From: a virus
Lineage: Duplodnaviria > Heunggongvirae > Uroviricota > Caudoviricetes
Direction: 5' to 3' (one strand)
Virus record (IMG/VR): IMGVR_UViG_2778261087_000003
Length of the DNA stretch: 64,000 nucleotides
Below the pieces are notes generated by a model. The model made no database searches. It saw only the letters and a program-made list of their open reading frames with translations, and had not been told where the DNA came from. This document shows, one piece after another, positions 33,678-58,651 of this stretch. The translations under genes were made by a program, and so were the position numbers. Each line of letters starts with the position of its first letter. Within the stretch, counting starts at the first letter, position 1.

Positions 33678-33752
<75 letters not shown>

Positions 33753-33893
33753 TCTCGTGTAGTTCAGGAGGGCATTGCTCAACAGGAACAGCAGGCCAAA
33801 TCAACTACACCAAAGGGTAAAAAACGACGCAGGAAGGCTATACCAGAGGATATAAAGGCACAACGGACCGAAGCAGCCGAACACGCTCGCGAA

Positions 33894-36800
33894 ATGTTCG
33901 ATCAAAAAGGCGGTGCGCAAAAAAGCCAAAACCAACGCGATGCGCGTGGTCGTTTTATTGGAAAGTCAGGGAGTAAGGCCGCAGCGGAAGATGCCCGTGC
34001 TGAACGTGCTGAAAAGGCCAGGCGCAAAGAGGATGATGAGCGTCTAAATGCTGAATCAGGTTTATTAAAAAAACTGTCAAAAGTAGCTGAAGGCATAGGT
34101 AACCCTTCAGAGACTCGTGCCGTCGATGCGTTAGGTTATGCCGTTGCTGGTCCATTGTGGGCAGCAGGGAAGGAGCTTGGCGGGATATCAAAAGAAGTTG
34201 GTGGATCGCTTAATGGTGCCAGAAAGTCTATTGCCGATGTGATTCGTGGCAATGACGATAACAGCCGTAGAAAAGGTTTTTTTAGGCGTAAATCGCAAAA
34301 TAGTGCCGATGTCGTTCAGGTTAACACCCAAAAACGGACGGTTCAGGAACTTCAGGAGCAGACCAGCGAAATTAAAGAGGGCAATGACAAGATTCTCAGC
34401 GCCCTTGATCAGATAGCCAAAAACACCGGGAAAAAGAAGGGCGGCTTGCTGTCCAAACTATTTAGCCTGTTAGGGAAGGGGGCCGGTGGCGTCGCGTCGT
34501 TGTTAATGGGGCGTGGCATGCTGAAAAAAGCTGGAGCACTCGCTTTTGGCGCTCTGGGGGCAAAGAAACTTGTAGGAATGCTACGCGGTGGTGGCAAGAA
34601 GACTCTCGCCCATGAAGGCGGAGATTTGGCTGCCCGGGCAGCAGGTAAACTTGGATTAAAGGCAGTTGGTAAAGGGGCGTTACGCGCAATTCCCCTGGTC
34701 GGCACAGTGGCTGGAGGTATTTATGATGCGGTAACCGGTTGGAATGATACAGAAGCGCAACGTCGAGCGTTTGGGCTTAAATCAGGACAAGATCCATCAT
34801 TCCAGCAAAAAGCCGCTTATACGTTAGCTAATGTTCTTGATATGGGGGGACTGGTATCTGGTATTAGCAGCGCCATTGGTGAGGTTCTCAAATCACTTGG
34901 ATTTGAGGATATCGGCAATATGTTGCAATCATTTTCGACGGAAAGTATTGCCCAGGCCATTGATAGTGGGATTACCAACTTAGAAACATATATTTCTAAC
35001 CTTGGCGACACCATTTCTACCAAGTTCGATGATTACACAGCAAAGATTGGTGATGCTGTTTCAGCATGGTTTAGCGATACATCTAATAAGCTGCTTGAAA
35101 AGCTGGATGCCATCAAAGACTTCTTTACTGTCGATAACCTGAAACAGGTTTTCAGTGATGCAATTGATAGTGCAATTGATTTCATTAAGAACCCAGGGAA
35201 ACACATTAAAGAGGCGGCTGGTAATATTTGGGATGGGGTTAAAAATTTACCTGGTAAAGCATTAGATGCAGCGGTTGATGCCGTTAAAAATACCCCTGCG
35301 GCAATGATTGTATCAAAAATACCCAATCCGATCGGCGAGGCTAATGCGAAAGAAATCACTCCAGAGTTAAAAGCTCCGGTTAATAGCCACCAGGAGACAT
35401 CTGATTCTAAAACTGAATCCGATGCCAAACAGACTAATATTGTTACCCGCGTGATAAATGCGGCACTGGACACGGCGAAAGATAGCAATAAAACAGTTAA
35501 AGAAACTGCTAATCAGATTATCAATGCAAATGCCGTAGAAACGGGCAATAGCGCGTTGCAGAAAATTGATAAAGCTATTGGTCAAAATAGCTCGTCATCA
35601 TCGTCGCTTAATACCACTGGCACCAGGAATGACATTCAGAAAGCTGCGGATACCTACAACAATGGCCGCTTGGATGTAAAAGTCGGAAGTCTTGGCGCTG
35701 AAGGTAAGGCAAATCTCGATAAGTTGGCTCCGTATTTTGCTGAACTAGAGAATAAATATGGCCTTCCTGAAGGTACTCTTTACGCGATCGCTGCAACTGA
35801 ATCTGGTGGTGATCCTAACGCAAAATCTACGCTTACAAGATCACCAAATGGAAAGCTAAGTGGTGGCGCTCTCGGAATGTTCCAGTTTACGAGCGTTGCT
35901 CGTGAGGAAACTGGATTATCCCGGGAAGATTCTTTTAATCCGGAAAAATCGGCAGAAGCTGCGGCTCTTCTCATGAGCAAGTATCTGAAGCAAGCCAATG
36001 GAGACTTAAACGAGGCCATCACTGCATATAACGCTGGGTTTGGCACTATCAATAAGTGGAAAAAAGGCACAGGTGACTTATCGAAAGAAAACCGTGAGTA
36101 CGCGATCAAGGTCAATACTCATCGTGCTCGCTATTTAGGTGGTGAAATCTATACACCTGGAGCAGGAGCACAGGGTGGGGCGCAATATGGAGTGAGGGGA
36201 CCACTGCCTGATAACGCTGTTATCGATCAGTCTACTGGCTTGGCGTTTACCCTTGGTGATAGCCCGTTTGAGAAAGGCGGTCTGGTAGACAAAATCGGCA
36301 ATGCTGTTGGCGTTAACGATCTGGTCAACAAATTCATGAATGGCCGGGGTATGCGTCGGGAAGTCGTTCAGGGAACGCTCGAAGAACGTGCACGAGGGAA
36401 GGGGACCGCAACAGCAGCTGGCAATGTGTATGTTGATACCCCGATGCCAGTTGAAGAGGCGCGTCCGGTGGCCAACAACTCAAGTTACTTTGACCAGCTC
36501 GGCGCACAAATGGGGATTGATGGACTATTCGATAAACTCCTCAACTCGCCGGGGATGCGGAAAAATAATGCGCCTGAACCAGCCTCCACGTCCCAGGTGA
36601 CGACTGCCGCCAACGATTTGCAGCAACCAACCGGTCGTATGCAGATAGACGGACAGGTTATTAGTGACCTTGGCGGCTCCGGTGCCAAGCCGACAATGCA
36701 GTTGGCTGATAATACCGTTTCACTTGATGGTGAAACGAAGCGGCTGTTTGCGCAGATGACCTCATTGCTTGCCAGGATTGAAGAGCACACCAAAGACTCG

Positions 36801-36914
36801 GCGAAAGGCCAGGGAACTGTCGTAAAGGTCAGCACGCCTCAGCCGGGCGTTATGCGCACGGTACCACTGTCAATTGATGATCCGTTGATGAATGACTACG
36901 CGAGAGTTGATTGA
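33894..36914 (+). CDS. sit: Sit-like injection protein with lytic transglycosylase domain; likely 5'-truncated (frame open back to 33750)
   Basis: 1006 aa; ...LYAIAATESGGDPNAKS...GALGMFQFTSVAREETGL...AYNAGFG... LT motifs; position upstream of baseplate/R/S/U as in P1. Confidence 0.65.
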   Translation: MFDQKGGAQKSQNQRDARGRFIGKSGSKAAAEDARAERAEKARRKEDDERLNAESGLLKKLSKVAEGIGNPSETRAVDALGYAVAGPLWAAGKELGGISKEVGGSLNGARKSIADVIRGNDDNSRRKGFFRRKSQNSADVVQVNTQKRTVQELQEQTSEIKEGNDKILSALDQIAKNTGKKKGGLLSKLFSLLGKGAGGVASLLMGRGMLKKAGALAFGALGAKKLVGMLRGGGKKTLAHEGGDLAARAAGKLGLKAVGKGALRAIPLVGTVAGGIYDAVTGWNDTEAQRRAFGLKSGQDPSFQQKAAYTLANVLDMGGLVSGISSAIGEVLKSLGFEDIGNMLQSFSTESIAQAIDSGITNLETYISNLGDTISTKFDDYTAKIGDAVSAWFSDTSNKLLEKLDAIKDFFTVDNLKQVFSDAIDSAIDFIKNPGKHIKEAAGNIWDGVKNLPGKALDAAVDAVKNTPAAMIVSKIPNPIGEANAKEITPELKAPVNSHQETSDSKTESDAKQTNIVTRVINAALDTAKDSNKTVKETANQIINANAVETGNSALQKIDKAIGQNSSSSSSLNTTGTRNDIQKAADTYNNGRLDVKVGSLGAEGKANLDKLAPYFAELENKYGLPEGTLYAIAATESGGDPNAKSTLTRSPNGKLSGGALGMFQFTSVAREETGLSREDSFNPEKSAEAAALLMSKYLKQANGDLNEAITAYNAGFGTINKWKKGTGDLSKENREYAIKVNTHRARYLGGEIYTPGAGAQGGAQYGVRGPLPDNAVIDQSTGLAFTLGDSPFEKGGLVDKIGNAVGVNDLVNKFMNGRGMRREVVQGTLEERARGKGTATAAGNVYVDTPMPVEEARPVANNSSYFDQLGAQMGIDGLFDKLLNSPGMRKNNAPEPASTSQVTTAANDLQQPTGRMQIDGQVISDLGGSGAKPTMQLADNTVSLDGETKRLFAQMTSLLARIEEHTKDSAKGQGTVVKVSTPQPGVMRTVPLSIDDPLMNDYARVD

Positions 36915-40049: not shown

Positions 40050-40060
40050 GGATATGCTTG

Positions 40061-41959: not shown

Positions 41960-42567
41960 TGGTCAAAGCCGAATTAAATCAGGACATGATCGCCACGGTG
42001 GCCGGTGAAATCCCCGTCTACAACTACGATGGCGAGACGCGCGAATATCTGTCTTCATCCGTTGAGTACCTTGCCGTAGGGGTTGGCATCCCGGCTAATT
42101 CCTGCATTGATGCTCCAGGCGAAAGTAAAACCGGCTTCGCTATTTGCCGGACGGCTGATTTTGCCGCATGGGAATACGTTGTCGATCATCGTGGTGAGTC
42201 GGTCTACAGTACCGTAACTGGTGAGGTAGTTGTCGTTTCTTTACTTGGTGATTACCCAACAGAAACCACACCGCTGGCACCTGCTACGCCATACGATACG
42301 TGGAGTGGTGGCGAGTGGGTGACGGATACCGCCGCGCAGCACGCGGCAAAAGTGGAGGCAGCAGAACAGCAAAAATCAGCGTTACTGATTGAGGCGCAGG
42401 CAATGATCAGTCTATGGCAGACAGAACTACAATTAAGCATTATCAGTGATAAAGATAAGGCCAGCCTGATACTCTGGCTGACCTACATAAAGGAATTGCA
42501 GGCGGTCGTTCCTGACGCTGCACCAGGTATCAAATGGCCTACGCCTCCGGTTGAACAGGCCAGTTAA
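41959..42567 (+). CDS. U: Tail fibre assembly protein U
   Basis: 202 aa, MVKAELNQDMIATVAGEIPVYNYDGETREYL... Confidence 0.8.
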   Translation: MVKAELNQDMIATVAGEIPVYNYDGETREYLSSSVEYLAVGVGIPANSCIDAPGESKTGFAICRTADFAAWEYVVDHRGESVYSTVTGEVVVVSLLGDYPTETTPLAPATPYDTWSGGEWVTDTAAQHAAKVEAAEQQKSALLIEAQAMISLWQTELQLSIISDKDKASLILWLTYIKELQAVVPDAAPGIKWPTPPVEQAS

Positions 42568-43138
42568 TATCAGGAGCCGTCGAAACATCGACGGCTTTAA
42601 CCGCCGTTTTATAAGCCATCCATGACGATAATTTCTTTTTGTTTTCTTCGCTGATATCACCGAGCATCAGCTCCACTCGCCAGTCGGAGGATAGTTCATC
42701 TACCTGAGCGAGGAGCATTTGTCGGTGTTGTTCTGCATCAGCAATATCACCTTGATGTTTTGCGTCAGAATCCGTGACCCATTTCTCTCCGTCCCATTTA
42801 TCATACGGTGATGCAGGGGCATTTGGCGTTGTACCTTCGGGATAATCCCCCAGTGTAGTCACGTCGACTTGTTGCATTGTCTCTGTGCTATAAACGGTTT
42901 GACCTCTGTGGTCGGTGACATATTCCCAGGATGAAAGGTCTGCTGTACGGCAAATAGCAAATCCCTCCTTTTTTTCACCCGGAGCATCAACGCAGGAATT
43001 AGCCGGGATGCCAACCCCTACGGCAAGGTACTCAACGGATGAAGACAGATATTCGCGCGTCTCGCCATCGTAGTTGTAGACGGGGATTTCACCGGCCACC
43101 GTGGCGATCATGTCCTGATTTAATTCGGCTTTGACCAT
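42539..43138 (-). CDS. U': Alternative tail fibre assembly protein U'
   Basis: 199 aa, same first 40 residues as U then divergent; convergent with U. Confidence 0.8.
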   Translation of the reverse strand: MVKAELNQDMIATVAGEIPVYNYDGETREYLSSSVEYLAVGVGIPANSCVDAPGEKKEGFAICRTADLSSWEYVTDHRGQTVYSTETMQQVDVTTLGDYPEGTTPNAPASPYDKWDGEKWVTDSDAKHQGDIADAEQHRQMLLAQVDELSSDWRVELMLGDISEENKKKLSSWMAYKTAVKAVDVSTAPDINWPVQPEA

Positions 43139-43620
43139 TATGCAGCCCTCACGATGTAGTTAAATACGACGTTGCGTGGACGAGTTTCACCTTTCATTGA
43201 TGAGGCATCATTGATGTTCTCCGCACCATTTTTGCCGCCAGACATATAGGTGAATGTCCTACCTCCATTAGCCCAATAGTCACATCCGTATTGAGCTGCA
43301 GGAGAAAAAATAGTTTCATTTGCTATCGCCTGCTCTACACCTGGAGGGATAGCAGTTGGAGTATTAACCGTCGTAGGAATCGCGTGATTGTGGGATATGA
43401 CGGTATGCTCCTGGCTTGACAGTAATTCCCTTCCTGCATCGACCCCGCGTCCATCATCCCATCCCCGGATAAACTCCCCGCGTAGATCAGGCAGTCTGAG
43501 CGCCGGATAAGCCAGTGCCAACTTAGGGTACTGGGAGGCGGTAAACGCAGCCCCATTACATTTGAGCCACCCTGTTGGTGGCGTTGCTGACGGCCACGGA
43601 ATGGGGACTCCAACCGGCAA
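43138..43620 (-). CDS. Alternative tail fibre variable segment Sv' (expressed only after inversion; no own promoter)
   Basis: First 60 residues identical to the variable start of S (PVGVPIPWPSATPPTGWLKCNGAAFTASQYPKLALAYPALRLPDLRGEFIRGWDDGRGVD) then divergent; ends ...RPRNVVFNYIVRAA. Confidence 0.8.
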   Translation of the reverse strand: MPVGVPIPWPSATPPTGWLKCNGAAFTASQYPKLALAYPALRLPDLRGEFIRGWDDGRGVDAGRELLSSQEHTVISHNHAIPTTVNTPTAIPPGVEQAIANETIFSPAAQYGCDYWANGGRTFTYMSGGKNGAENINDASSMKGETRPRNVVFNYIVRAA

Positions 43621-43645
43621 AGCAGAGCCTTCCCCTAAACCAAGG
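43439..43645. repeat. Right inverted repeat of the invertible segment
   Basis: Reverse complement matches 41419-41625 with a few inner-end mismatches. Confidence 0.8.
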
Positions 43646-43655
43646 TTTAGGATTG
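43630..43655. other. cix crossover site (right)
   Basis: TCCCCTAAACC-AA-GGTTTAGGATTG, palindromic half sites around AA core at 43642-43643; overlaps cin 3' end. Confidence 0.55.
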
Positions 43656-44207
43656 AAATGATGACGCCGGAAACTTCTTATAAAGCGTGGAAACAGCCAC
43701 ATCATAGATGATTGCAACCTGCTTACGGGGGATGCCCTTCTCCAGCAATCGCCGCATTTGCTGCCATGTTTCTTCCTGGTATTTAGGCCGACGCCCACCT
43801 ATACGACCTTCTGCGCGAGCTACATCAAGTCCAGCGCGTGTACGTTCAACGATAAGCTCACGTTCCATTTCTGCCAGCGCCCCCATTACGTGAAAGAAAA
43901 AGCGCCCCATTGGTGTACTGGTGTCGATGGAGTCAGTGAGACTCCGGAAATTAATGCCTCTGTCACGCAGCTCTTCCACCAGCACAACTAAGTGACGCAT
44001 GCTGCGCCCAAGACGGTCTAACTTCCATACGACCAGGGTATCACCTCTGGAAAGCATACGGAGTACCTTTTTTAACCCAGGGCGCTCAGCCTTTTTGCCG
44101 CTCGCCTTGTCCTCAAAAATTAGCTCACATCCTGCGCTTTCAAGAGCGTTTCGTTGTAAAGCAGTGTTTTGTTCATTTGTTGATACGCGTACATAGCCTA
44201 TTAGCAT
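43647..44207 (-). CDS. cin: Serine DNA invertase (Cin/Gin/Hin family)
   Basis: 186 aa; MLIGYVRVSTNEQNTALQRNALESAGCELIFEDKASG... with catalytic Ser in VRVST; adjacent to invertible segment. Confidence 0.9.
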   Translation of the reverse strand: MLIGYVRVSTNEQNTALQRNALESAGCELIFEDKASGKKAERPGLKKVLRMLSRGDTLVVWKLDRLGRSMRHLVVLVEELRDRGINFRSLTDSIDTSTPMGRFFFHVMGALAEMERELIVERTRAGLDVARAEGRIGGRRPKYQEETWQQMRRLLEKGIPRKQVAIIYDVAVSTLYKKFPASSFQS

Positions 44208-44334
44208 ATTTTCTGCTCACTATCGTTATTTATAGCAAGCTGCGGATTTTAATTAACAAAAACCAGTATGTGTGGAAATCACAAAGTACATACCGTTTCC
44301 CAATGATATTTAATTCACTATTAAGGAAATAGTT

Positions 44335-44616
44335 ATGTGTGATTTCACAATAATGCTCCTCTCCATCCTTGGCGGGGTGCATTCGTTTCTGAATGGGGTT
44401 CGTGAAAAACGTTACGAAGCGTCATGCAGGCAATTGATGGCCGAGTGTATTGCTGCCGTACTTGCAGGCTTTATAGGCATGTATTTCGCGGAATATAAGG
44501 GTATGGATGAAAGTCTTCAGAATTGCGTGACTATTATTTGCAGCATCAATAACAGGCTCATTCTTGAAAAGTTACAAAGGATTATCGATTTGTACCTCAA
44601 TAGAAATGCCTCTTAA
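44335..44616 (+). CDS. Holin-like small membrane protein (paralog of next gene)
   Basis: 93 aa; shares pattern with 44684-45013. Confidence 0.4.
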   Translation: MCDFTIMLLSILGGVHSFLNGVREKRYEASCRQLMAECIAAVLAGFIGMYFAEYKGMDESLQNCVTIICSINNRLILEKLQRIIDLYLNRNAS

Positions 44617-44683
44617 GCAACAAATGACCGGTTGAGAAGTTACTTTGCATACCATTACCTCCTGACAACGTAGGAGGGAACTT

Positions 44684-45013
44684 GTGCTTGACACACAGGA
44701 ATTAGCTCCAGTTGCTATTGCGCTCCTGCTTTCAGTAATTGGTGGGATAGGCACGTTCCTGATGGATGTCCGAGACGGTCGCCAGTCTGGCAATTTGTTG
44801 GGATTGGTTACGGAGATCTTTGTTGCAGTGACAGCTGGCGCGGTGGCGTACCTATTGGGGCAACACGAGGGCTGGGAGTTATCAATTACGTACTTAATGG
44901 TAACGATAGCCAGCAATAACGGTCATGAGGTGATTTCAGGGATGAAACGAGTGAATATCGATAGCATTCTGAATGTTCTTACAAGTTTGGTGAAAAAGGG
45001 AGGCGGGAAATGA
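44684..45013 (+). CDS. Holin (P1 LydA-like)
   Basis: 109 aa, hydrophobic helices, charged C-terminus ...KKGGGK. Confidence 0.5.
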   Translation: MLDTQELAPVAIALLLSVIGGIGTFLMDVRDGRQSGNLLGLVTEIFVAVTAGAVAYLLGQHEGWELSITYLMVTIASNNGHEVISGMKRVNIDSILNVLTSLVKKGGGK

Positions 45014-45453
45014 TTGGCTGGGGTGTATGCGTTCTTGCGTTAGCCTTAGCCGATCGCTATTTGCTAAAACGCAAGGACATCACGCATTTAGAACTTGGTG
45101 ATGTGGAAATTAAACCGGGTTTCATCCGGGTGCCGTTCAAATACCGGTCTAAATTCCCGTTTTTGCGCGGCGCAACGGTCAGATATTGGATCCGCGATGT
45201 TCAGAAGCCGACGACAGTGATTGAAGGCGAACAACGTTGTCTGACGTCGGCTGAACAGGGCGAAAACAGTGAATGGTTGTACATACCCACTGAATATATG
45301 GGTAAAGGAGAGCGACTGTGGCATTTCAACGTCATGGTTACGCATGGCGACTCGTTCATTAACCCGTTGTATCGGATTTTCCCTGTTACTCAGCAAATCC
45401 GCAGAAGTTACGTAATAAATCTCGCACAGGATGTGTCAGATGACGAAAAATAA
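45010..45453 (+). CDS. Antiholin-like protein (P1 LydB position)
   Basis: 147 aa, start-coupled to holin. Confidence 0.4.
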   Translation: MIGWGVCVLALALADRYLLKRKDITHLELGDVEIKPGFIRVPFKYRSKFPFLRGATVRYWIRDVQKPTTVIEGEQRCLTSAEQGENSEWLYIPTEYMGKGERLWHFNVMVTHGDSFINPLYRIFPVTQQIRRSYVINLAQDVSDDEK

Positions 45454-46042
45454 GTATGCAACGGTCGATTTTGACCAGGTTAATGAAAAGGGGCTGAAAC
45501 CCCTTATCGCGGCGATCAATAAAACCGGGGTTACGGTAATTGAGGTTGACTCCAGCAACCGCGCAACAACGAAAGATGGCGTTAAAGTTAAAACCGCAAA
45601 GCTGGTTCTTAACGACGGACAAATTCTTGCCATACAGGTAAACGATACTGGCGATATATCGTCTGTGAAACTGAATGGAAAAGCTATTCCTAACGCTCAG
45701 TCGCCGGATATCAAGACGCTTGGTACCGTTATGGGACAGGCGGCCCGCAAAAACTCCGCAAAATTCCAGAAATCACTGATCGCCAAAGCGAAGCGTGTTG
45801 CCAATCCGGTAGACAAGAAACCGGCAGTTAAATCCAACTTTCAGCGCCTGCAAGAAGCAAAACAGCGGAATGCTCAGGTGGTTGCCGCTTATAAGTCCGC
45901 GCAGAATTCGGTGTCTTTCAATCAACAGCAGATCACTGATTTGCGGGCGAAGCTGGATAAGGAGACGGGCCGACTCAATAACGAAAAGGCACGGAATGGC
46001 GAACTCAAACGTCGTCTTAAGCAACTGAAAGCAGGAAATTAA
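45431..46042 (+). CDS. hdf: Hdf-like protein (homolog of the DarA N-terminal region)
   Basis: 203 aa; shares ...KNSAKFQ... and LNDGQILAIQV / LSDGQTISILF segments with the following 639-aa protein. Confidence 0.6.
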   Translation: MCQMTKNKYATVDFDQVNEKGLKPLIAAINKTGVTVIEVDSSNRATTKDGVKVKTAKLVLNDGQILAIQVNDTGDISSVKLNGKAIPNAQSPDIKTLGTVMGQAARKNSAKFQKSLIAKAKRVANPVDKKPAVKSNFQRLQEAKQRNAQVVAAYKSAQNSVSFNQQQITDLRAKLDKETGRLNNEKARNGELKRRLKQLKAGN

Positions 46043-46043
46043 C

Positions 46044-47963
46044 ATGGAACAGTTCAATATCAATAAAGGGGTGACGATCAAGCCTGGGCTTGACGTGCTT
46101 CCCCCGCCAGTGACTGATGATGAATATCGCGCATTAATGGCCGGTGAGGACCGCTATCTGATGACGGAATCCAACACCCTGGAGGAAATCGAGGCTACGT
46201 TCTTCTATGACACGCCGATCCACTGGTGTGCTACGGATTTACTGGAGGCGATTAGTTCTACTCGTTTGCAGTTACACCGGACCATGCAGGCATTTGTCCG
46301 GGCATTGAACCAGAAGCTGAATGGTACCGGAATCTCTGCGGGGAGTGATAAAACGGGGGATGTGGCCCAGAGCGGCGCGCGCGCGATCGGCGGCGCTGAA
46401 ATTGGCCGGGCACGTAACGTTAACGGGCTGCCGGTCTTGCCAGCCATTATTCCGCTCAGTGATGGTCAGACTATCAGCATTCTGTTTCATAGCCCGACAG
46501 CGGAAAACCGGATCACCAATAGCGATACGCTGGTTGCTTTCCAGTTCTTACTGAATAAAAAAGACGTTACTCACACCGTTGCTCCGATGAGTGGACGTGA
46601 TATGACGCTGGCGCAGGTCACCATGAAACTTGCCAACCTTGCAGAGAAAAACTCGGCAAAATTCCAGCGTGCGCAGAAGAAGAAAAAAACCCTTGTTGAT
46701 GAAATAACCCAACTACAGGCTGACAGTGACCAGAAAGAGGATGCCATGAGCGACCTCGCGGATCAGGTGGCAGCGGTAGAAGGGCAGAAGGCAGATCTGG
46801 AGCAGAAAATTAACGCTGTTGCATCGGAAGCGGATTCTCTTTATGAAGAGAATGAGCGTTTGCAGACGGAGATTGATCAGCTCAATCGCACTGGTGGGCG
46901 CGATACCATTGCTCCAGCGGGGATGACTGGTGGGCACTCTCGCGCGCTGACGGATCGCCTTGCCAGTATCAAAAATCGTATGCATATGAACGGGGAAGTG
47001 ACGCTCAGTAATGGAGCATCAATGAAGCAATTCATTGAGGACGGCGAAGGGTATATCCAGTTAACCGATCCGGATGGCAGCGTATACATGATCAAGGCTA
47101 AATCCATACAGGGTGTGGACATGGCAGATGCGATCGGCAAGCTGTTTAAAGCCTATAAAGCGGGTAATGTATCGGAATACCTGGTCCAACCAGAAGAACA
47201 TAAACCGGAAAACGTCGAACCTGAACAAGCGGAGGATACCGGTAGCTCTTCGCCTGAACCAGAAGTCTCTGTAGGTGCATATCGATATGCCCTGCAAATG
47301 CGTCCGGCGGCCCCTGGCGCAATACCTGAAGGTAACAAAGCAATTCTGCCGCGCCCTGATGAAGGTGACCCGTATTATGAATATGCACGCTACGGCATTG
47401 CTACTTTCGATACCCCGCTTTCTGATCAGCAAATGAGTGAGTACGACCTGAAGTTATTGCCTCGCGAGGATTCTTTCGACTTCCTGGCGAAGACACTTAC
47501 TAATGGTCCGTTTGGCAAATATGCACAAAAAGCTCTGGAGCTGGCCACCAGCTCACCAGACGAGTTCCGCGTAATGCTGAAAACTCAGTTTCAAAAAACT
47601 TTCCCCAATATTGCGTTTCCTGGGGGCGCTGGCACCGAGAAAATGGTGCAGAGCATGATCAATGCATTGCAGGCCGAAGTCGGTGAGATTACTCAGCCAG
47701 AACCGGCCCCGGCACAGCCTGATGAAACGGTTAGCGAAGCAGATGCAGAGGCTAATAAAGCCATTGAATATCTCAATAACGTGATGGATATGAAAAGCAC
47801 TGACATGGCGGAGATCCGTAACGCCCGGGGCAATGTCCGGGAAGCGATTGCAGCCCTTCAGGCTGCCGGACGTTTTGAGGAAAACGAAGAGCTGGTTAAC
47901 GGCGCAGCTCGCCACCTAGCTGATCTGTTGGTAGCAATCCAGAAAGCGGGGGTAGCGGCATGA
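46044..47963 (+). CDS. darA: DarA-like antirestriction/capsid-associated protein
   Basis: 639 aa; paralogy to upstream hdf-like gene; central coiled coil; followed by ddrA/ddrB-sized genes. Confidence 0.6.
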   Translation: MEQFNINKGVTIKPGLDVLPPPVTDDEYRALMAGEDRYLMTESNTLEEIEATFFYDTPIHWCATDLLEAISSTRLQLHRTMQAFVRALNQKLNGTGISAGSDKTGDVAQSGARAIGGAEIGRARNVNGLPVLPAIIPLSDGQTISILFHSPTAENRITNSDTLVAFQFLLNKKDVTHTVAPMSGRDMTLAQVTMKLANLAEKNSAKFQRAQKKKKTLVDEITQLQADSDQKEDAMSDLADQVAAVEGQKADLEQKINAVASEADSLYEENERLQTEIDQLNRTGGRDTIAPAGMTGGHSRALTDRLASIKNRMHMNGEVTLSNGASMKQFIEDGEGYIQLTDPDGSVYMIKAKSIQGVDMADAIGKLFKAYKAGNVSEYLVQPEEHKPENVEPEQAEDTGSSSPEPEVSVGAYRYALQMRPAAPGAIPEGNKAILPRPDEGDPYYEYARYGIATFDTPLSDQQMSEYDLKLLPREDSFDFLAKTLTNGPFGKYAQKALELATSSPDEFRVMLKTQFQKTFPNIAFPGGAGTEKMVQSMINALQAEVGEITQPEPAPAQPDETVSEADAEANKAIEYLNNVMDMKSTDMAEIRNARGNVREAIAALQAAGRFEENEELVNGAARHLADLLVAIQKAGVAA

Positions 47964-48325
47964 CACTATCAGCTATTGAGTTAATGGATCTCAGCGATAA
48001 GTTGGATGCTCTGATGTCCAAAGCGGCGACCGCGAGTGGCATGGAGTTGCTGGATATCAGCGATGAAATTGACCAGATCATGCAACAGATGGGGTACGGC
48101 GCGTCCGGCGGTGGTAGTGGCGAGGAAAAACAACCTTCGGAACATGATGGTGTGCCAAAACTGGTTGCTGATTTCCTGGCTGATAAATTCGTCGATCAGA
48201 GCACCGATGCATTTATCGGTACCTTGCAGGATTTGAGTCAATATGTTGGCACATACATCGACCTGGACCAGGTTAAACAGCACACGGCGGCATGGATAGC
48301 CGCCAACATTAAAGAGGCAGCATAA
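47960..48325 (+). CDS. ddrA: DdrA-like small protein
   Basis: 121 aa acidic protein start-coupled to darA-like gene. Confidence 0.45.
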   Translation: MTLSAIELMDLSDKLDALMSKAATASGMELLDISDEIDQIMQQMGYGASGGGSGEEKQPSEHDGVPKLVADFLADKFVDQSTDAFIGTLQDLSQYVGTYIDLDQVKQHTAAWIAANIKEAA

Positions 48326-48337
48326 GGCGTAACAGGG

Positions 48338-51325
48338 ATGAGCTTAAGCGATCAGGTGGTAATGGCCACCAGCATAGAAACGCTGATCGAGCTGCTAAAG
48401 AACCTGCCCGATTATGGGCGGGTTTCGTATGTGGTGACAGCGAAGGGAGACGAGGTAAAAACAGCGTTTGATATCGTCGATGCCTCAGTTCTTTTGGTAT
48501 CCAATACTCTGGATGGGAAAATTAATCCAGACTATCCCCAGGAACTTCAGCCGCGCGACCGGACCCGCGCATCCAGCCTTCTTCAGGTCAACCAGATATC
48601 CAAGGATTTGCGTCCTGCCCAGCTTACCGATTCCGGTTTATCCAGCCATGGCGCGCCAATAATTGGTGAGGACAATGCCGTTGAGTCAGGTAATGGGCGG
48701 ACCATGGGGATCATTAAAGCCTATCAGGACGGTAATGCGGATCGGTATCGGGAGTACCTGATTGAACATGCGACCGAATTCGGCATACGGCCTGAAAAGG
48801 TTGAATCAATGACGGCTCCGGTACTGGTGCGCCGCCGGTTAACGAAGGTTGACCGTGTTCAGTTTGCCAAGGACTCAAATATTTCTGATCTCCAGGAAAT
48901 GGCAGCCAGTGAAAAGGCTTTTGTTGATGCCGACAGCATAACACCGGCGATGATGGCGTTGTTTAACCCGTCAGAAAGTGGAGATCTGCTTAGCCGCAGT
49001 AATGACGCGTTTATTCGCGGATTCATGACGCAAGTTGGTGCCACACAGGCTGCTGGCCTTGTAACGGAAGATGGGCGACCAACACGGCAACTTGTAGACC
49101 GTATACAAAACGCGATCTTTGCCAAGGCATATAAGGATGCGCGCCTGGTAAGGATGGTTGCAGAAGAACCTGATCCGGATATGCGTAATGTTCTGACGGC
49201 GCTTAATGCGGCAGCCAATGATTTTGTCCAGATGCAGGCTTTATCAGGAGAAGCGCACAAGCAGGCTGTGACAACTATTGTTGATGGCATTGAGACAGCG
49301 GATAGCCTCGATAAAAAGGCGCTGGCGGCATTGAAAGATGCGGTAGACCTGGTAAGGCAATCGAAGGAGTCAGGCCAGCATATTACCGATGTTATTGCTC
49401 AGGGGGATATGTTCAGCGAAACGGCCCCGGAAGTGAAAGCACTCGCGTTGTTCATCGTCGCGAATAACCGTAGTGCGAAGCGTATGGCCACCGCCTTTAA
49501 GTTGATGGCGCAACGTATCAATGATGAGTTACAGCACCAGGGCCAGGCGCTCGGGGATATGTTTGGCGGCGGCGATGTGTCGTTACAGGATATCCTTCGC
49601 CAAGTATCTCAGGAACTGGAAAACGAAGGTATGCAAGGGATATCTGGCGGTCTTTTCGAGTCAGCTTCTGGCGGTAGTTACAACGGTGTTGCTCCATATA
49701 CCAGCTTGCTATTACATCGGGCATCCGGCATCAAAGACATTATTCATCTGATCAGGCTGCTTTCCCGTACAGATCCCCAGGATGAACAGCTTGTTCAAGT
49801 GCTTGCGCATTTTGTTCGAATGCCTGTTGCCGACGTGAAAAAATGGTGCCGATTATTCGGTATCAGCAATTCGTTACTTCGCGGCTTGTTAAATCACGCA
49901 TCCTCCCTTGGGCGCGATGGCTTTGACGAGATAGCGCAGGCGATAAAAAACGGAGATATGCCACCAGCTATTGACTGGTTTTCCATTCGCCCAACCAGGG
50001 TGAAAGCATTCCTTAGCGCGGCGCAATCAGCATCACCATTGGCAGAAATGGTTCAGAGGTTATCGCTCATATTCACAGACCATACCGCGTTGGGAGATCT
50101 GACTCTGGACGAGATGAAGGAAGCCTCCATTCAGTGGGCCGATCAACAAAATGAGGTTAACTCAGACTTCTTGCCAGCATTCAGGAAGGCCGTTAGTAAA
50201 GCTGATGATGCCCGTGGAATTCTGAAGGCATTTAAGGCATTGCAAAGTCGGGTTAATAAACATGTCGGTGATATCGATGGGGTAACGGCGGAAGGCAGGG
50301 ATATCCTTAAAGAGCACGGCATAACGCCAGAGTTTATTGATGAGATCAGGACTGATATGCAGCGTGAGGTCGTATCGTCCCTGCAAATCGTAGCCAGAGC
50401 GTTGGCGGATGCTAATCCGAAGAGTGCGGCCATTGTTAACCGTGTTATTGGTGATATTGAAGCATCGGAGGGCATGGGGGCGCTGAAACTCTTCCTTTCG
50501 CGAGCGTTTAATCCTAACGGCAATATTCTCCCCGGCATTATTGGTGAGGCTAAAAAGTATGTCAGCGAAGAAGAACTTGAGCATCTTGACCAACTACTTA
50601 AGCGATTCTCATATAACCCGCAGACACGCTGGCAAATGAATCAGCGAAGTATGGGTTCGGTCTATGAGAAAGTGTTATCTGCCATGAATAGTGCGATAGC
50701 CAACTCATCCGTATCTGAAGAAAAAGCTCTTGAGTGGGCCGACTCTTTTATCACGGAAGAAGTGGAAGAAGCCCGCGCTGGACAGAGTGGTGGGATAGAC
50801 CTGCGCAAGGAACTTGCTGATATTTATCGCCTGACCGGCGGTAAAATTTCGACCTTATCAAAGGTGGTTCACCACCAGGGAAGGGCATATGCAAATCTTA
50901 ATGGTGTTGTTGCTGTCAATTTGAACGATGAAAATGCAAGTGCACTGTGGCACGAGCTGGGCCATCATCTTGAGTACAGTAATCCTGGTTTGTTAGAGAA
51001 AGCCCGGTCATTCCTGAAGGCCAATGTTGAAGGGGATAAGCCATCTTTCGTTAATATCGGTGGGCGTGGCAAGCCTGAATGGTGCTTCAGATCCCGATTG
51101 AGTAATATTTATATGGCGAAGGTATACCCGCCAGCCTCAGTAAGTAACACCGGGAAAATTCGGCAGAAATCACCGACTATTTCCAAAACGTCAGCAACGG
51201 AAGTATTCTCTATGGCTCTTCAGTTGTATCATGACAAAGAGGCCGCTGCCGCATCACTGATGAATGGTGACGGATTGCTGGAACTGTTATTAGGTGTGGC
51301 AAAGGAGCTAAATAATGCAGATTAA
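48338..51325 (+). CDS. ddrB: DdrB-like large protein
   Basis: 995 aa, operon position after ddrA-like gene. Confidence 0.5.
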   Translation: MSLSDQVVMATSIETLIELLKNLPDYGRVSYVVTAKGDEVKTAFDIVDASVLLVSNTLDGKINPDYPQELQPRDRTRASSLLQVNQISKDLRPAQLTDSGLSSHGAPIIGEDNAVESGNGRTMGIIKAYQDGNADRYREYLIEHATEFGIRPEKVESMTAPVLVRRRLTKVDRVQFAKDSNISDLQEMAASEKAFVDADSITPAMMALFNPSESGDLLSRSNDAFIRGFMTQVGATQAAGLVTEDGRPTRQLVDRIQNAIFAKAYKDARLVRMVAEEPDPDMRNVLTALNAAANDFVQMQALSGEAHKQAVTTIVDGIETADSLDKKALAALKDAVDLVRQSKESGQHITDVIAQGDMFSETAPEVKALALFIVANNRSAKRMATAFKLMAQRINDELQHQGQALGDMFGGGDVSLQDILRQVSQELENEGMQGISGGLFESASGGSYNGVAPYTSLLLHRASGIKDIIHLIRLLSRTDPQDEQLVQVLAHFVRMPVADVKKWCRLFGISNSLLRGLLNHASSLGRDGFDEIAQAIKNGDMPPAIDWFSIRPTRVKAFLSAAQSASPLAEMVQRLSLIFTDHTALGDLTLDEMKEASIQWADQQNEVNSDFLPAFRKAVSKADDARGILKAFKALQSRVNKHVGDIDGVTAEGRDILKEHGITPEFIDEIRTDMQREVVSSLQIVARALADANPKSAAIVNRVIGDIEASEGMGALKLFLSRAFNPNGNILPGIIGEAKKYVSEEELEHLDQLLKRFSYNPQTRWQMNQRSMGSVYEKVLSAMNSAIANSSVSEEKALEWADSFITEEVEEARAGQSGGIDLRKELADIYRLTGGKISTLSKVVHHQGRAYANLNGVVAVNLNDENASALWHELGHHLEYSNPGLLEKARSFLKANVEGDKPSFVNIGGRGKPEWCFRSRLSNIYMAKVYPPASVSNTGKIRQKSPTISKTSATEVFSMALQLYHDKEAAAASLMNGDGLLELLLGVAKELNNAD

Positions 51326-51626
51326 AATCGCAGCGCCATTAGGCGGAGATGCCATTATCGAATTTGATGATAATGAAGAAGTTTCCGGGCGTTTAAGCAT
51401 TATCTCCGGTGACATTACCGAGGACATGATCGCTGAAGCCATAGCTGGGGCAAATCCCAATAGCTATATGGGATTCGTTAACACCCTTGATGCTCCCGCA
51501 AGTGATGTTCTCCGAACGCTGCATCTTTACGCTGGCTGGTTTGTTGATTGGCCAGCAGTAGATGGTGGCGATGAGGACGACGACGACGATGATTTTGGTG
51601 ATCATGTAGACCAGATCGTATATTGA
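51315..51626 (+). CDS. Strongly acidic small protein
   Basis: 103 aa, C-terminus ...VDGGDEDDDDDDFGDHVDQIVY. Confidence 0.45.
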   Translation: MQIKIAAPLGGDAIIEFDDNEEVSGRLSIISGDITEDMIAEAIAGANPNSYMGFVNTLDAPASDVLRTLHLYAGWFVDWPAVDGGDEDDDDDDFGDHVDQIVY

Positions 51627-51628
51627 AG

Positions 51629-51654
51629 AAATCCCGCCAATTGGCGGGATTTTT
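51629..51654. terminator. Bidirectional rho-independent terminator
   Basis: AAATCCCGCC-AATT-GGCGGGATTT perfect hairpin then TT, between convergent genes. Confidence 0.6.
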
Positions 51655-51657
51655 ACC

Positions 51658-52752
51658 TCACGAGAAACTCTTTTCTGATGTCAGCCAACAGTGCTCGTGC
51701 ATATCTCTTGGTGGTTTTTCGACAAATGCCTCTTCAGCAATATCCCGCCAGGGGATTTGTTTAGCCCATTCAGCTATAGCGTTATGGTTTGCCGAGAATA
51801 ACGGTATTGTATAGGCCTTCAGCCAGTCTAATGTGCTGGAGTTGTGTTTTTGAGCGTGATGTTTCGCATGGTGTTTGGCGATCACGATCGTAGGCACTAC
51901 CCATTTACTACCGTCAGTCATTGTGAAGTGCATATTACGGGGAACAGATGACTTTTCCATCAACTCCCGAATCCCGGGAAATTTCCCCAAGATCAATCGG
52001 CGATATTCATCGCTATTGCGCCCACCAAACTCTTTGGCTTTGAATTCAAGATATGCTTCAGAAACGAGAGGTGAATCCTCTGTGTTTAGAGTTATCGCCG
52101 TGAAAAAACCAGCAGGATTGTTTTTACTATGGGCCAACCGGTGATGCGAATCATAAAAGTACCCTTTCTCGCGTTCCGATGGTTTCGACAGCAACAGCAG
52201 GCGCGAGTCATAATTGGTTAAATTGCCTGTTATCACTGCATGAGCGCGATCGCTGATTTCCGCCGAGTTAATAACGATGAAAAGATCGTGCGGTCCAGTA
52301 AAACCAGCCAGAGATACTTCGTTATTCAGACAATAGGTTATATAGACGCATCCCCATGTTTCACTGGTATGCACCAACCCTTTGTCAGGGTGCATTCTGA
52401 AATGATTGCCAAGAAAAGGGTGTCTTTGGGTAACTCGCTCCCAATAACGGAACATATAGTCAATTATTGTTTTTCGACTATCGTTAATCGCAGGAGAAAC
52501 AACCACTGTACGGGAACACGAATACAGTATTGTTTGCAGGATGCTAATCACTGCCACAATAGAGGTTTCCCCAATACCATGTGGTGTGGTGGCAGTGACT
52601 TTGGCTCCGGTGTTCTTTATCGCGTTAATAATTTTTGCTTGATGAGGTGTTAACTCAATATCAAGCAACTCTTTCGCTGCCAGTTCCCAATTGTCTTTAT
52701 ACTGTTCTATCAGTGCTAACCAGGCAGGTTCATTCTGTATACGATTAGTCAC
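51658..52752 (-). CDS. Hypothetical protein (last gene of ssb-linked operon)
   Basis: 364 aa, no diagnostic motif recognised with confidence. Confidence 0.45.
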   Translation of the reverse strand: MTNRIQNEPAWLALIEQYKDNWELAAKELLDIELTPHQAKIINAIKNTGAKVTATTPHGIGETSIVAVISILQTILYSCSRTVVVSPAINDSRKTIIDYMFRYWERVTQRHPFLGNHFRMHPDKGLVHTSETWGCVYITYCLNNEVSLAGFTGPHDLFIVINSAEISDRAHAVITGNLTNYDSRLLLLSKPSEREKGYFYDSHHRLAHSKNNPAGFFTAITLNTEDSPLVSEAYLEFKAKEFGGRNSDEYRRLILGKFPGIRELMEKSSVPRNMHFTMTDGSKWVVPTIVIAKHHAKHHAQKHNSSTLDWLKAYTIPLFSANHNAIAEWAKQIPWRDIAEEAFVEKPPRDMHEHCWLTSEKSFS

Positions 52753-52848
52753 TTTCCACCTCTTCCGTGGTGTTTTCTTGCAGTTCTGTTAATGCAGCAC
52801 GACACAGGTTCCGGGCCTTGGCTATAGCCACACTTTTGACTTCATCCG

Positions 52849-53532
52849 TCATCGTGCAGGCAATGTACTGATCGAGTTCTTCAGCTCGGAGATGCTTTTG
52901 CCAATCAGAAACTGTATTTGCCAGAGCAGATCGGCATCCATAATCAGAATTTCTGCCGGGCCTTCAGGGCCAGCCGGGAAGGAAACATAAGCCTGTTTGC
53001 CCAAGCCGATAACTCGACAACTTGCTTCAAGAATTGCGCGCTTGAGGTCTGACTTTGTAACGGAAACAGGTTGGTTTTCACCAGTGATTACGCCGTTGAC
53101 ATGGAAGTGAAAGGGCATGTAGCTTGAAATTCGCTCTACTTTCCATACGCCAGCAAGCGATCCTTCATGCAGCACAATGGGGGTAACCGCGAGTTTCATC
53201 TCACCATATAACTGCTGGCAGAGAGCTGGATTGCTGAATACATCCAAAGGTTCACACTCAAACAGCGGTGCAATCTGCATGAGGTCCATCATGGTCATAC
53301 CTGGGGTACGAGCAGTAATGAATCTGCGCATTCCAGTATCCATTGTGCGCCAGATAGCTACACCATGCTTTTTGCTCACTTCTTCAGTAAAGCCAAGGTG
53401 GCACATGATGGTTTTTTCGATAGCCAGATCAGAGATAGAAACCTTTTCGCCTGGCACTCCATCATTATTGATGGTCACTTCGACACTCTGGCCATTACGC
53501 AGGCGGTATTGAATTGCTTTAGTATTTTCCAC
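52849..53532 (-). CDS. Hypothetical protein
   Basis: 227 aa ORF. Confidence 0.45.
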   Translation of the reverse strand: MENTKAIQYRLRNGQSVEVTINNDGVPGEKVSISDLAIEKTIMCHLGFTEEVSKKHGVAIWRTMDTGMRRFITARTPGMTMMDLMQIAPLFECEPLDVFSNPALCQQLYGEMKLAVTPIVLHEGSLAGVWKVERISSYMPFHFHVNGVITGENQPVSVTKSDLKRAILEASCRVIGLGKQAYVSFPAGPEGPAEILIMDADLLWQIQFLIGKSISELKNSISTLPAR

Positions 53533-53538: not shown

Positions 53539-54336
53539 TCACTCCACTACAAACCAGTCACATGCCAGTAAGTCGCCTACAGAAGGAACCCACGGAACAA
53601 CTACACCTTGTGCATTTTTTAAGGCGAAATAAGCACCATACGGAACGAGGTCGCCGGGGAAATATCCCTTAATGGCTTCCATTCGTGCCGGGTACTGTCC
53701 TTCAGGAACCAGCCAGCAGAATTGGTTTTCGCCGTTCCACCCGCGTCGAGCAACTTTCTTGCCATCCTTCAGCCACATCAGCGCGTCAGAAAAGTCGGCT
53801 GCTTCAAGGTCGATTTCTTCTTGTAGAGTAGCGATACCGCCAGCAGAAATAGTTACGTCCCTGGCTGTAATGAATGTCACCCCATTGTGACCTTCAATGC
53901 TGAGCAATGCCCCATTTTCGAAGAAGTCGTTAGTCCGACTAAAGCCTTCTTCAAATGTTTTTTCTGGTGAATAGGACAGAGATCCGTCCTCATAAGCGAC
54001 CAGATATCCGCCAATTTCTGGTCGGTGTTTTTGCAAAAACATTTTATCAACATGGACTTTTACCCCTTCTGGCTCAACGACTTCGATGTTGCAAAGAAGG
54101 ACCACATCCATTAGGGCGATAATTTCGATATCTTTGATTTTTGAGGCACGAACTGTTTTATGGCTTTTGTATTTTGGAAGTGCCGTCAAAAGCTCTTTCG
54201 TTGTCATATTATTCATAGTCTTTCCTCTGCTTAAAACCTGGTGTATTGCGCCTTCAGGTGGGTCAGGAATGTTTTCCCACCAGCGAAAGCAATATCTCGG
54301 GGTGTTCTTTTCGTGAAAAGCGCGTGCCATTGCCAA
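53539..54336 (-). CDS. Two-domain hypothetical protein with C-terminal DUF2829-like segment (start may be internal)
   Basis: C-terminal ...FSDALMWLKDGKKVARRGWNGENQFCWLVPEG... matches the GKKvxRxGWNG hallmark I associate with DUF2829. Confidence 0.45.
   Translation of the reverse strand: MAMARAFHEKNTPRYCFRWWENIPDPPEGAIHQVLSRGKTMNNMTTKELLTALPKYKSHKTVRASKIKDIEIIALMDVVLLCNIEVVEPEGVKVHVDKMFLQKHRPEIGGYLVAYEDGSLSYSPEKTFEEGFSRTNDFFENGALLSIEGHNGVTFITARDVTISAGGIATLQEEIDLEAADFSDALMWLKDGKKVARRGWNGENQFCWLVPEGQYPARMEAIKGYFPGDLVPYGAYFALKNAQGVVVPWVPSVGDLLACDWFVVE

Positions 54337-55920: not shown

Positions 55921-58651
<2,731 letters not shown>

What the first reader, a model, noticed from the sequence alone, without database searches (positions are those of the whole stretch)
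45431..51325. Dar-type antirestriction operon with visible hdf/darA paralogy
The 203-aa protein and the N-terminal part of the following 639-aa protein share segments (KNSAKFQ; LNDGQILAIQV versus LSDGQTISILF). This is what is expected of P1 hdf and darA. With the ddrA- and ddrB-sized genes downstream and darB-like at 58718, the window carries most of a capsid-packaged antirestriction system.
Basis: partly seen in the sequence, partly recalled or inferred. Interest (0 to 1): 0.45.

Follow-up and report, generated by a model that had tools for sequence, protein, structure and literature searches.

The report
Phage P1 Dar antirestriction operon

Summary
Window 45431-51325 is the hdf-darA-ddrA-ddrB block of a P1-type phage-plasmid. 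It is 97.8% identical in DNA to P1 (NC_005856). The four proteins are 98-99% identical to P1 Hdf, DarA, DdrA and DdrB, with no indels. The Hdf/DarA resemblance is real homology. Both match Pfam DarA_N (E = 2.7e-21 and 1.1e-42), and the pairwise score exceeds all 2000 shuffles (z = 6.5). It is also already published: Iyer et al. 2017 defined the DarA-N domain from these two proteins, and PDB 9ukm shows the DarA-Hdf pair. darB starts at 58718 (99.2% identical to P1) and is cut by the window end. On the source contig (NNXF01000006.1; the window is its first 64 kb) darB is full length and ulx follows, so all six Dar genes are present. The late promoter LPdar, a terminator after hxr, and the portal and protease genes are all conserved. 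Verdict: observation confirmed, interpretation supported, novelty nil. One point of context: the P1-type element appears broken. A Mu-like transposable prophage (window 1-33752) is inserted 261 nt into sit, P1's essential tape-measure gene. Unless repaired or complemented, this element probably cannot make infectious virions, and Dar proteins only act from inside virions. A Tad2-like gene absent from P1 sits at 53539-54216.

The parts
44637..44655 (+). LPdar, the P1 late promoter (-22 box and -10) that drives lydA-lydB-hdf-darA-ddrA-ddrB-hxr
   Evidence: Annotated in P1 at the corresponding position. Window 44600-44700 is 100% identical to P1. The sequence was read.
44684..45453 (+). lydA (44684-45013, holin) and lydB (45010-45453, holin antagonist). 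These lysis genes are the first two genes of the same late transcription unit and are not Dar components.
   Evidence: 109/109 and 145/147 identical to P1 LydA and LydB. P1 annotation.
45431..46042 (+). hdf: a small basic (pI 10.2) capsid-internal protein. It consists of a DarA_N domain (res 13-109, nt 45467-45757) plus a C-terminal helix. The likely true start is 45440 (200 aa).
   Evidence: 200/203 identical to P1 Hdf. Pfam DarA_N E = 2.7e-21. PHROG 1620 Hdf-like, E = 1.4e-79. PDB 9ukm_H full length. Start-codon context.
46044..47963 (+). darA: a 639-aa internal head protein. It has DarA_N (res 66-204, nt 46239-46655), a coiled-coil helix (~205-290) and DarA_C (res 411-472, nt 47274-47459).
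   Evidence: 627/639 identical to P1 DarA. Pfam DarA_N 1.1e-42 and DarA_C 3.5e-16. NCBIfam NF052326 at 1089 bits. PDB 9ukm_I.
47960..48325 (+). ddrA: a 121-aa acidic protein whose start overlaps the darA stop (ATGA).
   Evidence: 119/121 identical to P1 DdrA. PHROG 1855 DdrA-like, E = 9.8e-58. No Pfam or NCBIfam family. Junction read.
48338..51325 (+). ddrB: a 995-aa protein with an N-terminal DdrB-type ParB domain (res 36-167, nt 48443-48838) and a C-terminal HELGH zincin-type motif (res 872-876, nt 50951-50965).
   Evidence: 979/995 identical to P1 DdrB. Pfam ddrB-ParB E = 5.5e-39. HExxH read. Iyer et al. predict a metallopeptidase domain here, but no Pfam peptidase model matched.
51315..51626 (+). 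hxr: a 103-aa, very acidic last gene of the operon. It overlaps the ddrB stop by 11 nt. Its function is unknown.
   Evidence: 100/103 identical to P1 Hxr. pI 4.05, with 24 D/E against 3 K/R. No Pfam or NCBIfam hit even at E <= 10.
51627..51654 (.). Intrinsic-terminator hairpin (12-bp stem, AAUU loop, U-run) between hxr and the convergent 364-aa gene. It marks the end of the dar transcription unit.
   Evidence: RNA fold of -19.3 kcal/mol, z = -5.6, no shuffle folds as well. Sequence read. The consensus scanner missed it.
55921..58642 (-). pro (55921-56940, prohead protease) and prt (56933-58642, portal). These partner functions are needed for head assembly and for processing of DarA.
   Evidence: 337/339 and 565/569 identical to P1 Pro and Prt. 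Roles taken from PMC12810830 and PMC9024508.
58718..64000 (+). darB, the first 1761 of 2255 codons, cut by the window end. It encodes an N6-adenine methyltransferase plus SNF2-type helicase, a capsid-packaged protein.
   Evidence: Open frame. 1747/1761 identical to P1 DarB. Pfam N6_Mtase, SNF2-rel_dom and Helicase_C. Full length (2231/2255 identical) on the source contig, followed by ulx (144/146 identical).
33753..36914 (+). Context: the 5'-truncated sit gene (P1 tape measure / transglycosylase). It lacks its first 87 codons and its upstream region because a transposable prophage abuts it at 33752/33753.
   Evidence: P1 similarity starts at P1 coordinate 44149, inside sit (40988-44410). The junction is clean. 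sit is essential in P1 (PMC10695390).

Best explanation
The region is the darA operon of a P1-lineage phage-plasmid, and it works as in phage P1.

Shown here: identity, anatomy and conservation.

Taken from the P1 literature: late in the lytic cycle the operon is transcribed from the late promoter LPdar. Hdf and DarA are paralogues that share the DarA_N domain and a following helix. They pair through those helices and bind the inner capsid surface at penton-hexon junctions, contacting DNA. They help set the normal large head size, and they are the foundation on which DdrA, DdrB, DarB and Ulx are then loaded. The N-terminus of DarA is removed by the prohead protease Pro. On infection all these proteins leave the head with the DNA. 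They protect only that DNA (cis action) from type I restriction enzymes. The DarA/Hdf/DdrA branch acts against EcoA-type enzymes and the DarB/Ulx/DdrB branch against EcoB/EcoK-type enzymes.

Inferred for this copy: the genes are intact and under purifying selection, so the proteins should be functional. However, the carrier element seems to have its essential tape-measure gene sit interrupted by a Mu-like prophage. In this strain the system can therefore probably not be delivered unless the defect is complemented.
For: DNA identity to P1 is 97.8-98.5% across 45431-51325 in 19 P1-group phage records, with matching annotation. Gene-by-gene protein identity is 98-99% with no indels. Order and overlaps match P1. 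The LPdar region is 100% identical. A terminator follows hxr. Family assignments: Pfam DarA_N in both Hdf and DarA, DarA_C, and ddrB-ParB; the NCBIfam DarA equivalog; PHROGs Hdf-like and DdrA-like; solved P1 structure chains 9ukm_H and 9ukm_I. Codon changes against P1 are 87 synonymous and 33 non-synonymous. darB, ulx, pro and prt are all present. The mechanism comes from PMC12810830, PMC9024508, PMC12707154 and PMC5512222. The Dar-Ddr system is reported as universal in P1/D6 phage-plasmids (bioRxiv 10.1101/2025.09.12.675607), and the operon occurs in 498 PLSDB plasmids.
Against: Nothing argues against the identity. Function in this particular element is untested. There are 33 amino-acid substitutions relative to P1 across the four proteins. 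sit is truncated at the junction with the transposable prophage, and sit knock-down abolishes P1 plaque formation. The molecular mechanism of protection is itself unresolved in the literature.
Confidence: 0.97

Rival explanations
1. The genes are intact, but in this strain the system is a stranded remnant. A Mu-like transposable phage has knocked out sit, so the P1-type element persists only as a plasmid. It cannot package or inject Dar proteins, and the dar genes are intact only because the insertion is recent.
For: Window 18000-33752 is ~100% identical to a transposable prophage of E. coli 97.3, and the match ends exactly at that prophage's own terminus. The terminus ...TCTAATCA abuts sit codon 88 with no shared repeat. 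sit is essential in P1. Contig length minus the prophage part is 130,020 - 33,752 = 96,268 bp, about one P1-type genome.
Against: The second junction lies outside the window and could not be reached. Only one assembly carries this junction, so a misassembly cannot be fully excluded. An intact second copy of the P1-type element or a helper could complement sit. This reading complements the main one and does not contradict it.
Confidence: 0.7
2. The Hdf/DarA resemblance is compositional (two lysine- and glutamine-rich coiled-coil proteins) and not common descent.
For: The pairwise BLASTP E-value is only 9e-4 at 29% identity. Both proteins carry long helical, low-complexity-like stretches that attract SMC- and tektin-type noise hits.
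Against: The best-conserved segments lie in the globular alpha+beta N-domain, not the coiled coil. Both proteins hit the same curated Pfam domain at 76 and 145 bits, over profile positions 2-122 of 122. Shuffles that preserve composition never reach the observed score. The domain was defined from these two proteins.
Confidence: 0.01
3. The primary role of Hdf and DarA is structural (auxiliary scaffold, head-size determination, capsid stabilisation), and antirestriction is a secondary consequence of their recruiting the true effectors.
For: Deletion of either protein shifts P1 from ~80% to ~15% normal heads and excludes all other Dar proteins. Fifty-five DarA-Hdf pairs reinforce penton-hexon junctions (PMC12810830). 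The review notes that this dependence complicates the interpretation of dar mutant phenotypes.
Against: All dar genes are non-essential for plaque formation. darA mutants are specifically restricted by EcoA-type systems, according to the literature cited. This concerns emphasis within the known system and does not change what the locus is.
Confidence: 0.3

Closest known systems
Phage P1 darA operon (hdf, darA, ddrA, ddrB, hxr; NC_005856 coordinates 24244-30436) together with darB and ulx
   Same: Same genes, order, overlaps, late promoter and protein lengths. DNA identity is 97.8% and protein identity 98-99%.
   Different: There are 33 amino-acid substitutions across Hdf, DarA, DdrA and DdrB, and one extra Asp in Hxr. 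Downstream, P1's isaB-IS1 is replaced by a 364-aa gene, and a Tad2-like gene is inserted between isaA and ssb. The carrier's sit gene is interrupted.
P1-type phage-plasmids of Enterobacteriaceae (e.g. NZ_CP103660, NZ_MK410117; phages SJ46, RCS47, JL22, P7)
   Same: The closest DNA matches are plasmids of this group, at 99.2% over the whole operon. They share the variable-region layout of 364 aa / IsaA / Tad2-like / ssb.
   Different: None of 484 plasmid records, 5,426 complete E. coli genomes, GTDB representatives or IMG/VR contigs carries the prophage-sit junction. The isaA homologue is split into 227 + 35 aa here and is 262 aa elsewhere.
DarA-N domain family (Pfam PF18788; Iyer et al. 2017) and the solved DarA-Hdf pair (PDB 9ukm, 9vz0)
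   Same: Both window proteins contain the domain and match the solved chains over their full length.
   Different: None of substance. Hdf residue 61 is Asn here and Ser in P1, so the P1 Hdf motif LSDGQ is even closer to DarA's.

Membership tests
P1 Dar (defence against restriction) system | Hdf orthologue: a small protein made of a DarA_N domain plus a C-terminal helix, encoded immediately upstream of darA | tested here: met
   200/203 identical to P1 Hdf. Pfam DarA_N at 76 bits against a 27-bit cutoff. PDB 9ukm_H over residues 1-203.
P1 Dar (defence against restriction) system | DarA orthologue with DarA_N and DarA_C domains | tested here: met
   627/639 identical. Pfam DarA_N and DarA_C. NCBIfam equivalog NF052326 at 1089 bits against a 350-bit cutoff. 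PDB 9ukm_I.
P1 Dar (defence against restriction) system | DdrA and DdrB orthologues downstream of darA. DdrB carries the DdrB-type ParB domain and a C-terminal HExxH motif. | tested here: met
   119/121 and 979/995 identical. Pfam ddrB-ParB E = 5.5e-39. HELGH at residues 872-876. No Pfam peptidase model matched the C-terminus.
P1 Dar (defence against restriction) system | DarB (methyltransferase plus helicase, ~2255 aa) and its loading factor Ulx | tested here: met
   The window holds DarB residues 1-1761, 99.2% identical. On the source contig beyond the window, DarB is full length (2231/2255 identical) and Ulx is 144/146 identical.
P1 Dar (defence against restriction) system | Late-gene expression as one unit from LPdar behind lydA and lydB | tested here: met
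   The promoter region is 100% identical to P1. Genes overlap or are tightly spaced. A terminator follows hxr. Transcription itself was not measured.
P1 Dar (defence against restriction) system | Proteins are packaged in the capsid, DarA is processed by Pro, and the proteins are ejected with the DNA | not testable with these tools
   Known for P1 from proteomics and cryo-EM. Here only the presence of intact pro and prt could be shown.
P1 Dar (defence against restriction) system | Cis protection of the packaged DNA against type I restriction (EcoA, EcoB, EcoK) | not testable with these tools
   Literature only.
P1 Dar (defence against restriction) system | The carrier is a phage able to build virions that deliver the proteins | tested here: inconclusive
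   The essential tape-measure gene sit lacks its first 87 codons at a junction with a transposable prophage. The second junction, and any possible intact copy, could not be examined.
DarA_N domain family (PF18788) | Match to the curated profile above the gathering score in both Hdf and DarA | tested here: met
   76.1 and 145.2 bits against a 27-bit cutoff, covering profile positions 2-122 of 122.
DarA_N domain family (PF18788) | Conserved Asp, and Asn followed by a basic residue (the NX+ motif of Iyer et al. 2017) | tested here: inconclusive
   Candidate residues align between the paralogues: Hdf D62 / DarA D140, and Hdf N82-G-K84 / DarA N171-K-K173. I could not check them against the authors' own alignment, which is in a supplement that is not held.

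The most novel reading that the evidence does not exclude
Hxr is the 103-aa last gene of the operon and is translationally coupled to ddrB. P1 records annotate it as a 'possible repressor, Xre homolog'. It may not be a DNA-binding repressor at all. It is extremely acidic (pI 4.05, with a run of six Asp near the C-terminus) and matches no helix-turn-helix or other family model. It could be an unrecognised seventh anti-defence component, for example a DNA-mimic-like decoy aimed at a defence system other than the type I enzymes tested so far.
Probability: 0.06. Interest if true: 0.4.

Novelty: already known. Interest (0 to 1): 0.05.

Why it matters
It matters little as a discovery. The Dar system has been studied since 1987, its component list was completed in 2017, its DarA-Hdf core was solved by cryo-EM in 2026, and a 2025 survey found it in every P1/D6-type phage-plasmid examined. 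The practical value here is annotation. The window can be labelled confidently as P1-lineage phage-plasmid DNA carrying a complete, conserved Dar set. The caveat is that a nested transposable prophage appears to have disabled the carrier's tail tape-measure gene. That nested arrangement is the only unusual thing in the window.

Tried and rejected
1. Compositional artefact as the explanation of the Hdf/DarA similarity. Rejected by Pfam and by shuffling.

2. Finding the prophage-sit junction elsewhere, to confirm it independently. I searched complete E. coli genomes, PLSDB plasmids, GTDB representative genomes and IMG/VR, and looked up the exact truncated Sit protein. Nothing turned up beyond the source assembly.

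3. Reaching the far end of the 130-kb source contig to see the second junction. This was not possible, because look-ups are limited to proteins encoded in the window plus 10-kb flanks. I judged a large homology search for P1 PmgB too costly for a side issue with a low chance of an exact-sequence hit.

4. Locus L004 (the left part of the strain 97.3 prophage) never appeared in the sandbox. I used DNA alignment on a small piece instead.

5. A Pfam metallopeptidase assignment for the DdrB C-terminus. No hit even at E <= 1, so only the HELGH motif supports it.

6. Hxr. Pfam at E <= 10 and NCBIfam gave nothing. A single-sequence AlphaFold2 model had pLDDT 39 and is unusable, so I ran no fold search.

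7. Piya et al. 2017, the key genetics paper (PMC6011833), is not in the held library. Its results are cited second-hand from PMC12810830, PMC9024508 and PMC10695390.

8. The consensus terminator scan missed the hairpin after hxr. It was confirmed by folding.


Full report
**What is in the sequence.** Between 44335 and 51626 the + strand carries a tight row of ORFs:

| Gene | Coordinates | Length |
|---|---|---|
| lydC | 44335-44616 | 93 aa |
| lydA | 44684-45013 | 109 aa |
| lydB | 45010-45453 | 147 aa |
| hdf | 45431-46042 | 203 aa |
| darA | 46044-47963 | 639 aa |
| ddrA | 47960-48325 | 121 aa |
| ddrB | 48338-51325 | 995 aa |
| hxr | 51315-51626 | 103 aa |

**Identity.** Megablast of 45431-51325 finds 19 P1-group phage records that cover the query fully at 97.7-98.5% identity, annotated Hdf, DarA, DdrA and DdrB. 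I aligned the translations against the reference P1 record NC_005856:

| Protein | Identical to P1 |
|---|---|
| Hdf | 200/203 |
| DarA | 627/639 |
| DdrA | 119/121 |
| DdrB | 979/995 |
| LydA | 109/109 |
| LydB | 145/147 |
| Hxr | 100/103 |

There are no indels in the four Dar proteins. Codon changes relative to P1 are mostly synonymous (87 against 33), as expected for genes under purifying selection.

Family models agree:
- Pfam gives DarA_N in Hdf and in DarA, DarA_C in DarA, and ddrB-ParB in DdrB.
- The NCBIfam equivalog 'antirestriction phage head protein DarA' scores 1089 bits against a cutoff of 350.
- PHROGs assigns 'Hdf-like antirestriction' and 'DdrA-like anti-restriction protein'.
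- The PDB copy contains P1 Hdf and DarA (9ukm and 9vz0, chains H and I), and the window proteins match them end to end.

**The paralogy.**
- BLASTP of Hdf against DarA aligns Hdf 29-115 with DarA 107-210 at 29% identity, E = 9e-4.
- A Smith-Waterman score of 86 compares with 42.8 +/- 6.7 for 2000 shuffles of Hdf. None reaches it (z = 6.5).
- With only the globular N-domains, 1 of 5000 shuffles reaches the observed score.
- Decisively, each protein matches the same curated Pfam domain over profile positions 2-122 of 122.
- The optimal alignment continues collinearly into the helical segment that follows the domain in both proteins. These are the segments that form the parallel helix bundle in the cryo-EM structure (PMC12810830).

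The paralogy is real. It is also published: Iyer et al. [quoted passage not shown]

**Operon anatomy.**
- The annotated P1 late promoter LPdar maps to window 44637-44655, and the surrounding 101 bases are identical to P1.
- Gene junctions are those of a coupled operon. hdf and darA are separated by one base. darA and ddrA share ATGA. ddrA and ddrB are 12 nt apart. ddrB and hxr overlap by 11 nt.
- Immediately after the hxr stop is a 12-bp hairpin with a U-run (51627-51654; -19.3 kcal/mol, z = -5.6) facing a convergent gene.
- DdrB keeps an HELGH motif at residues 872-876. This is the basis of the predicted C-terminal metallopeptidase, though no Pfam peptidase model matched.
- The hdf start is ambiguous. 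P1 annotates the ATG at 45431. Gene callers in seven related loci use the ATG at 45440, which has AGGA 8 nt upstream.

**The rest of the system.** The ORF at 58718 is darB. Its 1761 codons inside the window are 99.2% identical to P1 DarB residues 1-1761 and carry the methyltransferase and SNF2/helicase domains. The portal (prt, 56933-58642, - strand) and prohead protease (pro, 55921-56940, - strand) are 99.3-99.4% identical to P1.

An exact-protein look-up showed that the window is positions 1-64000 of contig NNXF01000006.1 (130,020 bp) of assembly GCA_002486955.1 (verified). Using Prt as an anchor I read 4.6 kb beyond the window. darB is full length (2231/2255 identical), and it is followed by ulx (144/146 identical) and an lxc-sized gene. 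All six published Dar components are therefore present in the source element.

**How it works.** This comes from the literature and was not tested here.
- The Dar proteins are internal head proteins.
- Loss of either Hdf or DarA also shifts head size from mostly large to mostly small.
- Fifty-five DarA-Hdf pairs sit at penton-hexon junctions touching DNA.
- DarA loses roughly 70 N-terminal residues to the protease Pro.
- The proteins leave with the DNA and protect it in cis from type I restriction. The DarA branch acts against EcoA/StySA and the DarB/Ulx/DdrB branch against EcoB/EcoK.

Sources: PMC12810830, PMC9024508 and PMC12707154. The biochemical basis of the protection is still unresolved. 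All dar genes and hxr are dispensable for plaque formation (PMC10695390).

**How common it is.** The operon is found in 498 PLSDB plasmids, 412 of them nearly full length, with the best at 99.2% identity. A 2025 survey reports the Dar-Ddr system in every P1/D6-type phage-plasmid examined (bioRxiv 10.1101/2025.09.12.675607).

Only window 33753-64000 is P1-like.
- Window 1-33752 is a Mu-like transposable prophage carrying a DDE transposase, a MuB-like ATPase, Gam, GemA, Mor and myovirus structural genes.
- Window 18000-33752 is ~100% identical to a prophage in the E. coli 97.3 chromosome.
- The match ends exactly at that prophage's own terminus, which in strain 97.3 abuts a disrupted nhoA gene.
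- In the window the same terminus (...TCTAATCA) abuts P1 sit 261 nt into the gene, with no shared repeat at the join. This is the signature of transposition and not of a repeat-mediated misassembly.
- sit has therefore lost its first 87 codons and its upstream region.
- sit is essential in P1.
- The contig begins at the constant/variable boundary of the prophage tail-fibre gene, a typical place for an assembly to break.
- The remaining 96,268 bp of the contig equal about one P1-type genome.

The simplest model is a ~132-kb circular composite: a P1-type phage-plasmid with a transposable prophage nested in its tape-measure gene. I could not reach the second junction, and no other record holds this one, so this remains a strong inference and not a demonstration. 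If it is true, the intact Dar genes cannot currently be delivered by this element.

**Verdict.** The locus is a near-identical copy of a textbook system, so the novelty class is 'already known' and interest is low.

Noticed in passing
window 1-33752 (junction at 33752/33753): A Mu-like transposable prophage (DDE transposase 26801-28570, MuB-like ATPase, Gam, GemA, Mor, myovirus late genes) is ~100% identical over window 18000-33752 to a prophage in the E. coli 97.3 chromosome. Its exact terminus is joined to codon 88 of the P1 tape-measure gene sit with no shared repeat. This looks like one phage nested in an essential gene of a phage-plasmid. No other record searched has this junction.
   Followed up: partly
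window 53539-54216 (- strand): A 225-aa protein with a C-terminal Tad2-like (anti-Thoeris) domain, Pfam PF11195, E = 1.6e-22. Relative to P1 it is a 684-bp insertion between isaA and ssb. A 2025 survey reports Tad2 in 56% of P1-type phage-plasmids, so this is known.
   Followed up: partly
window 51658-52752 (- strand): A 364-aa gene of unknown function replaces P1's isaB-IS1 segment. It has no Pfam or NCBIfam family, belongs to PHROG 5902 (unknown function), and has a weak resemblance to the terminase large-subunit ATPase (PHROG 2, E = 3.3e-7). It is common in other P1-type plasmids.
   Followed up: partly
window 52745-53532 (- strand): The isaA homologue (96% identical in DNA to P1 isaA) is split into 227-aa and 35-aa ORFs here. 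Related plasmids encode a single protein of 262 aa. It is probably a pseudogene in this element.
   Followed up: partly
window 51315-51626 (+ strand): Hxr is annotated in P1 as a possible Xre-like repressor. Here it is extremely acidic (pI 4.05; 24 D/E against 3 K/R; a DEDDDDDD run) and matches no HTH or other family model even at E <= 10. The repressor annotation looks doubtful. The single-sequence structure prediction was unusable.
   Followed up: partly
L019 395-2397 (source contig beyond the window, record ~66.2-68.2 kb): Past darB-ulx-lxc, where P1 carries its type III res/mod genes, this element has a 434-aa SIR2_2-domain protein and a 213-aa protein. This is a likely defence-gene swap, and several other P1-type contigs show the same arrangement.
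   Followed up: no
window 45431-45440: hdf start-codon ambiguity. P1 annotates a 203-aa product from the ATG at 45431. The ATG at 45440 (200 aa) has a properly spaced AGGA and is the one chosen by gene callers in seven related loci.
   Followed up: partly
window ~38000-43600: The P1-type tail-fibre and invertible C-segment region differs from reference P1. In one search the P1 match to window 33753-45499 is split into 2 pieces (3 in other P1-group records), and tail-fibre gene sizes differ between related loci. This is the usual host-range variable region next to cin (43647-44207, - strand).
   Followed up: no
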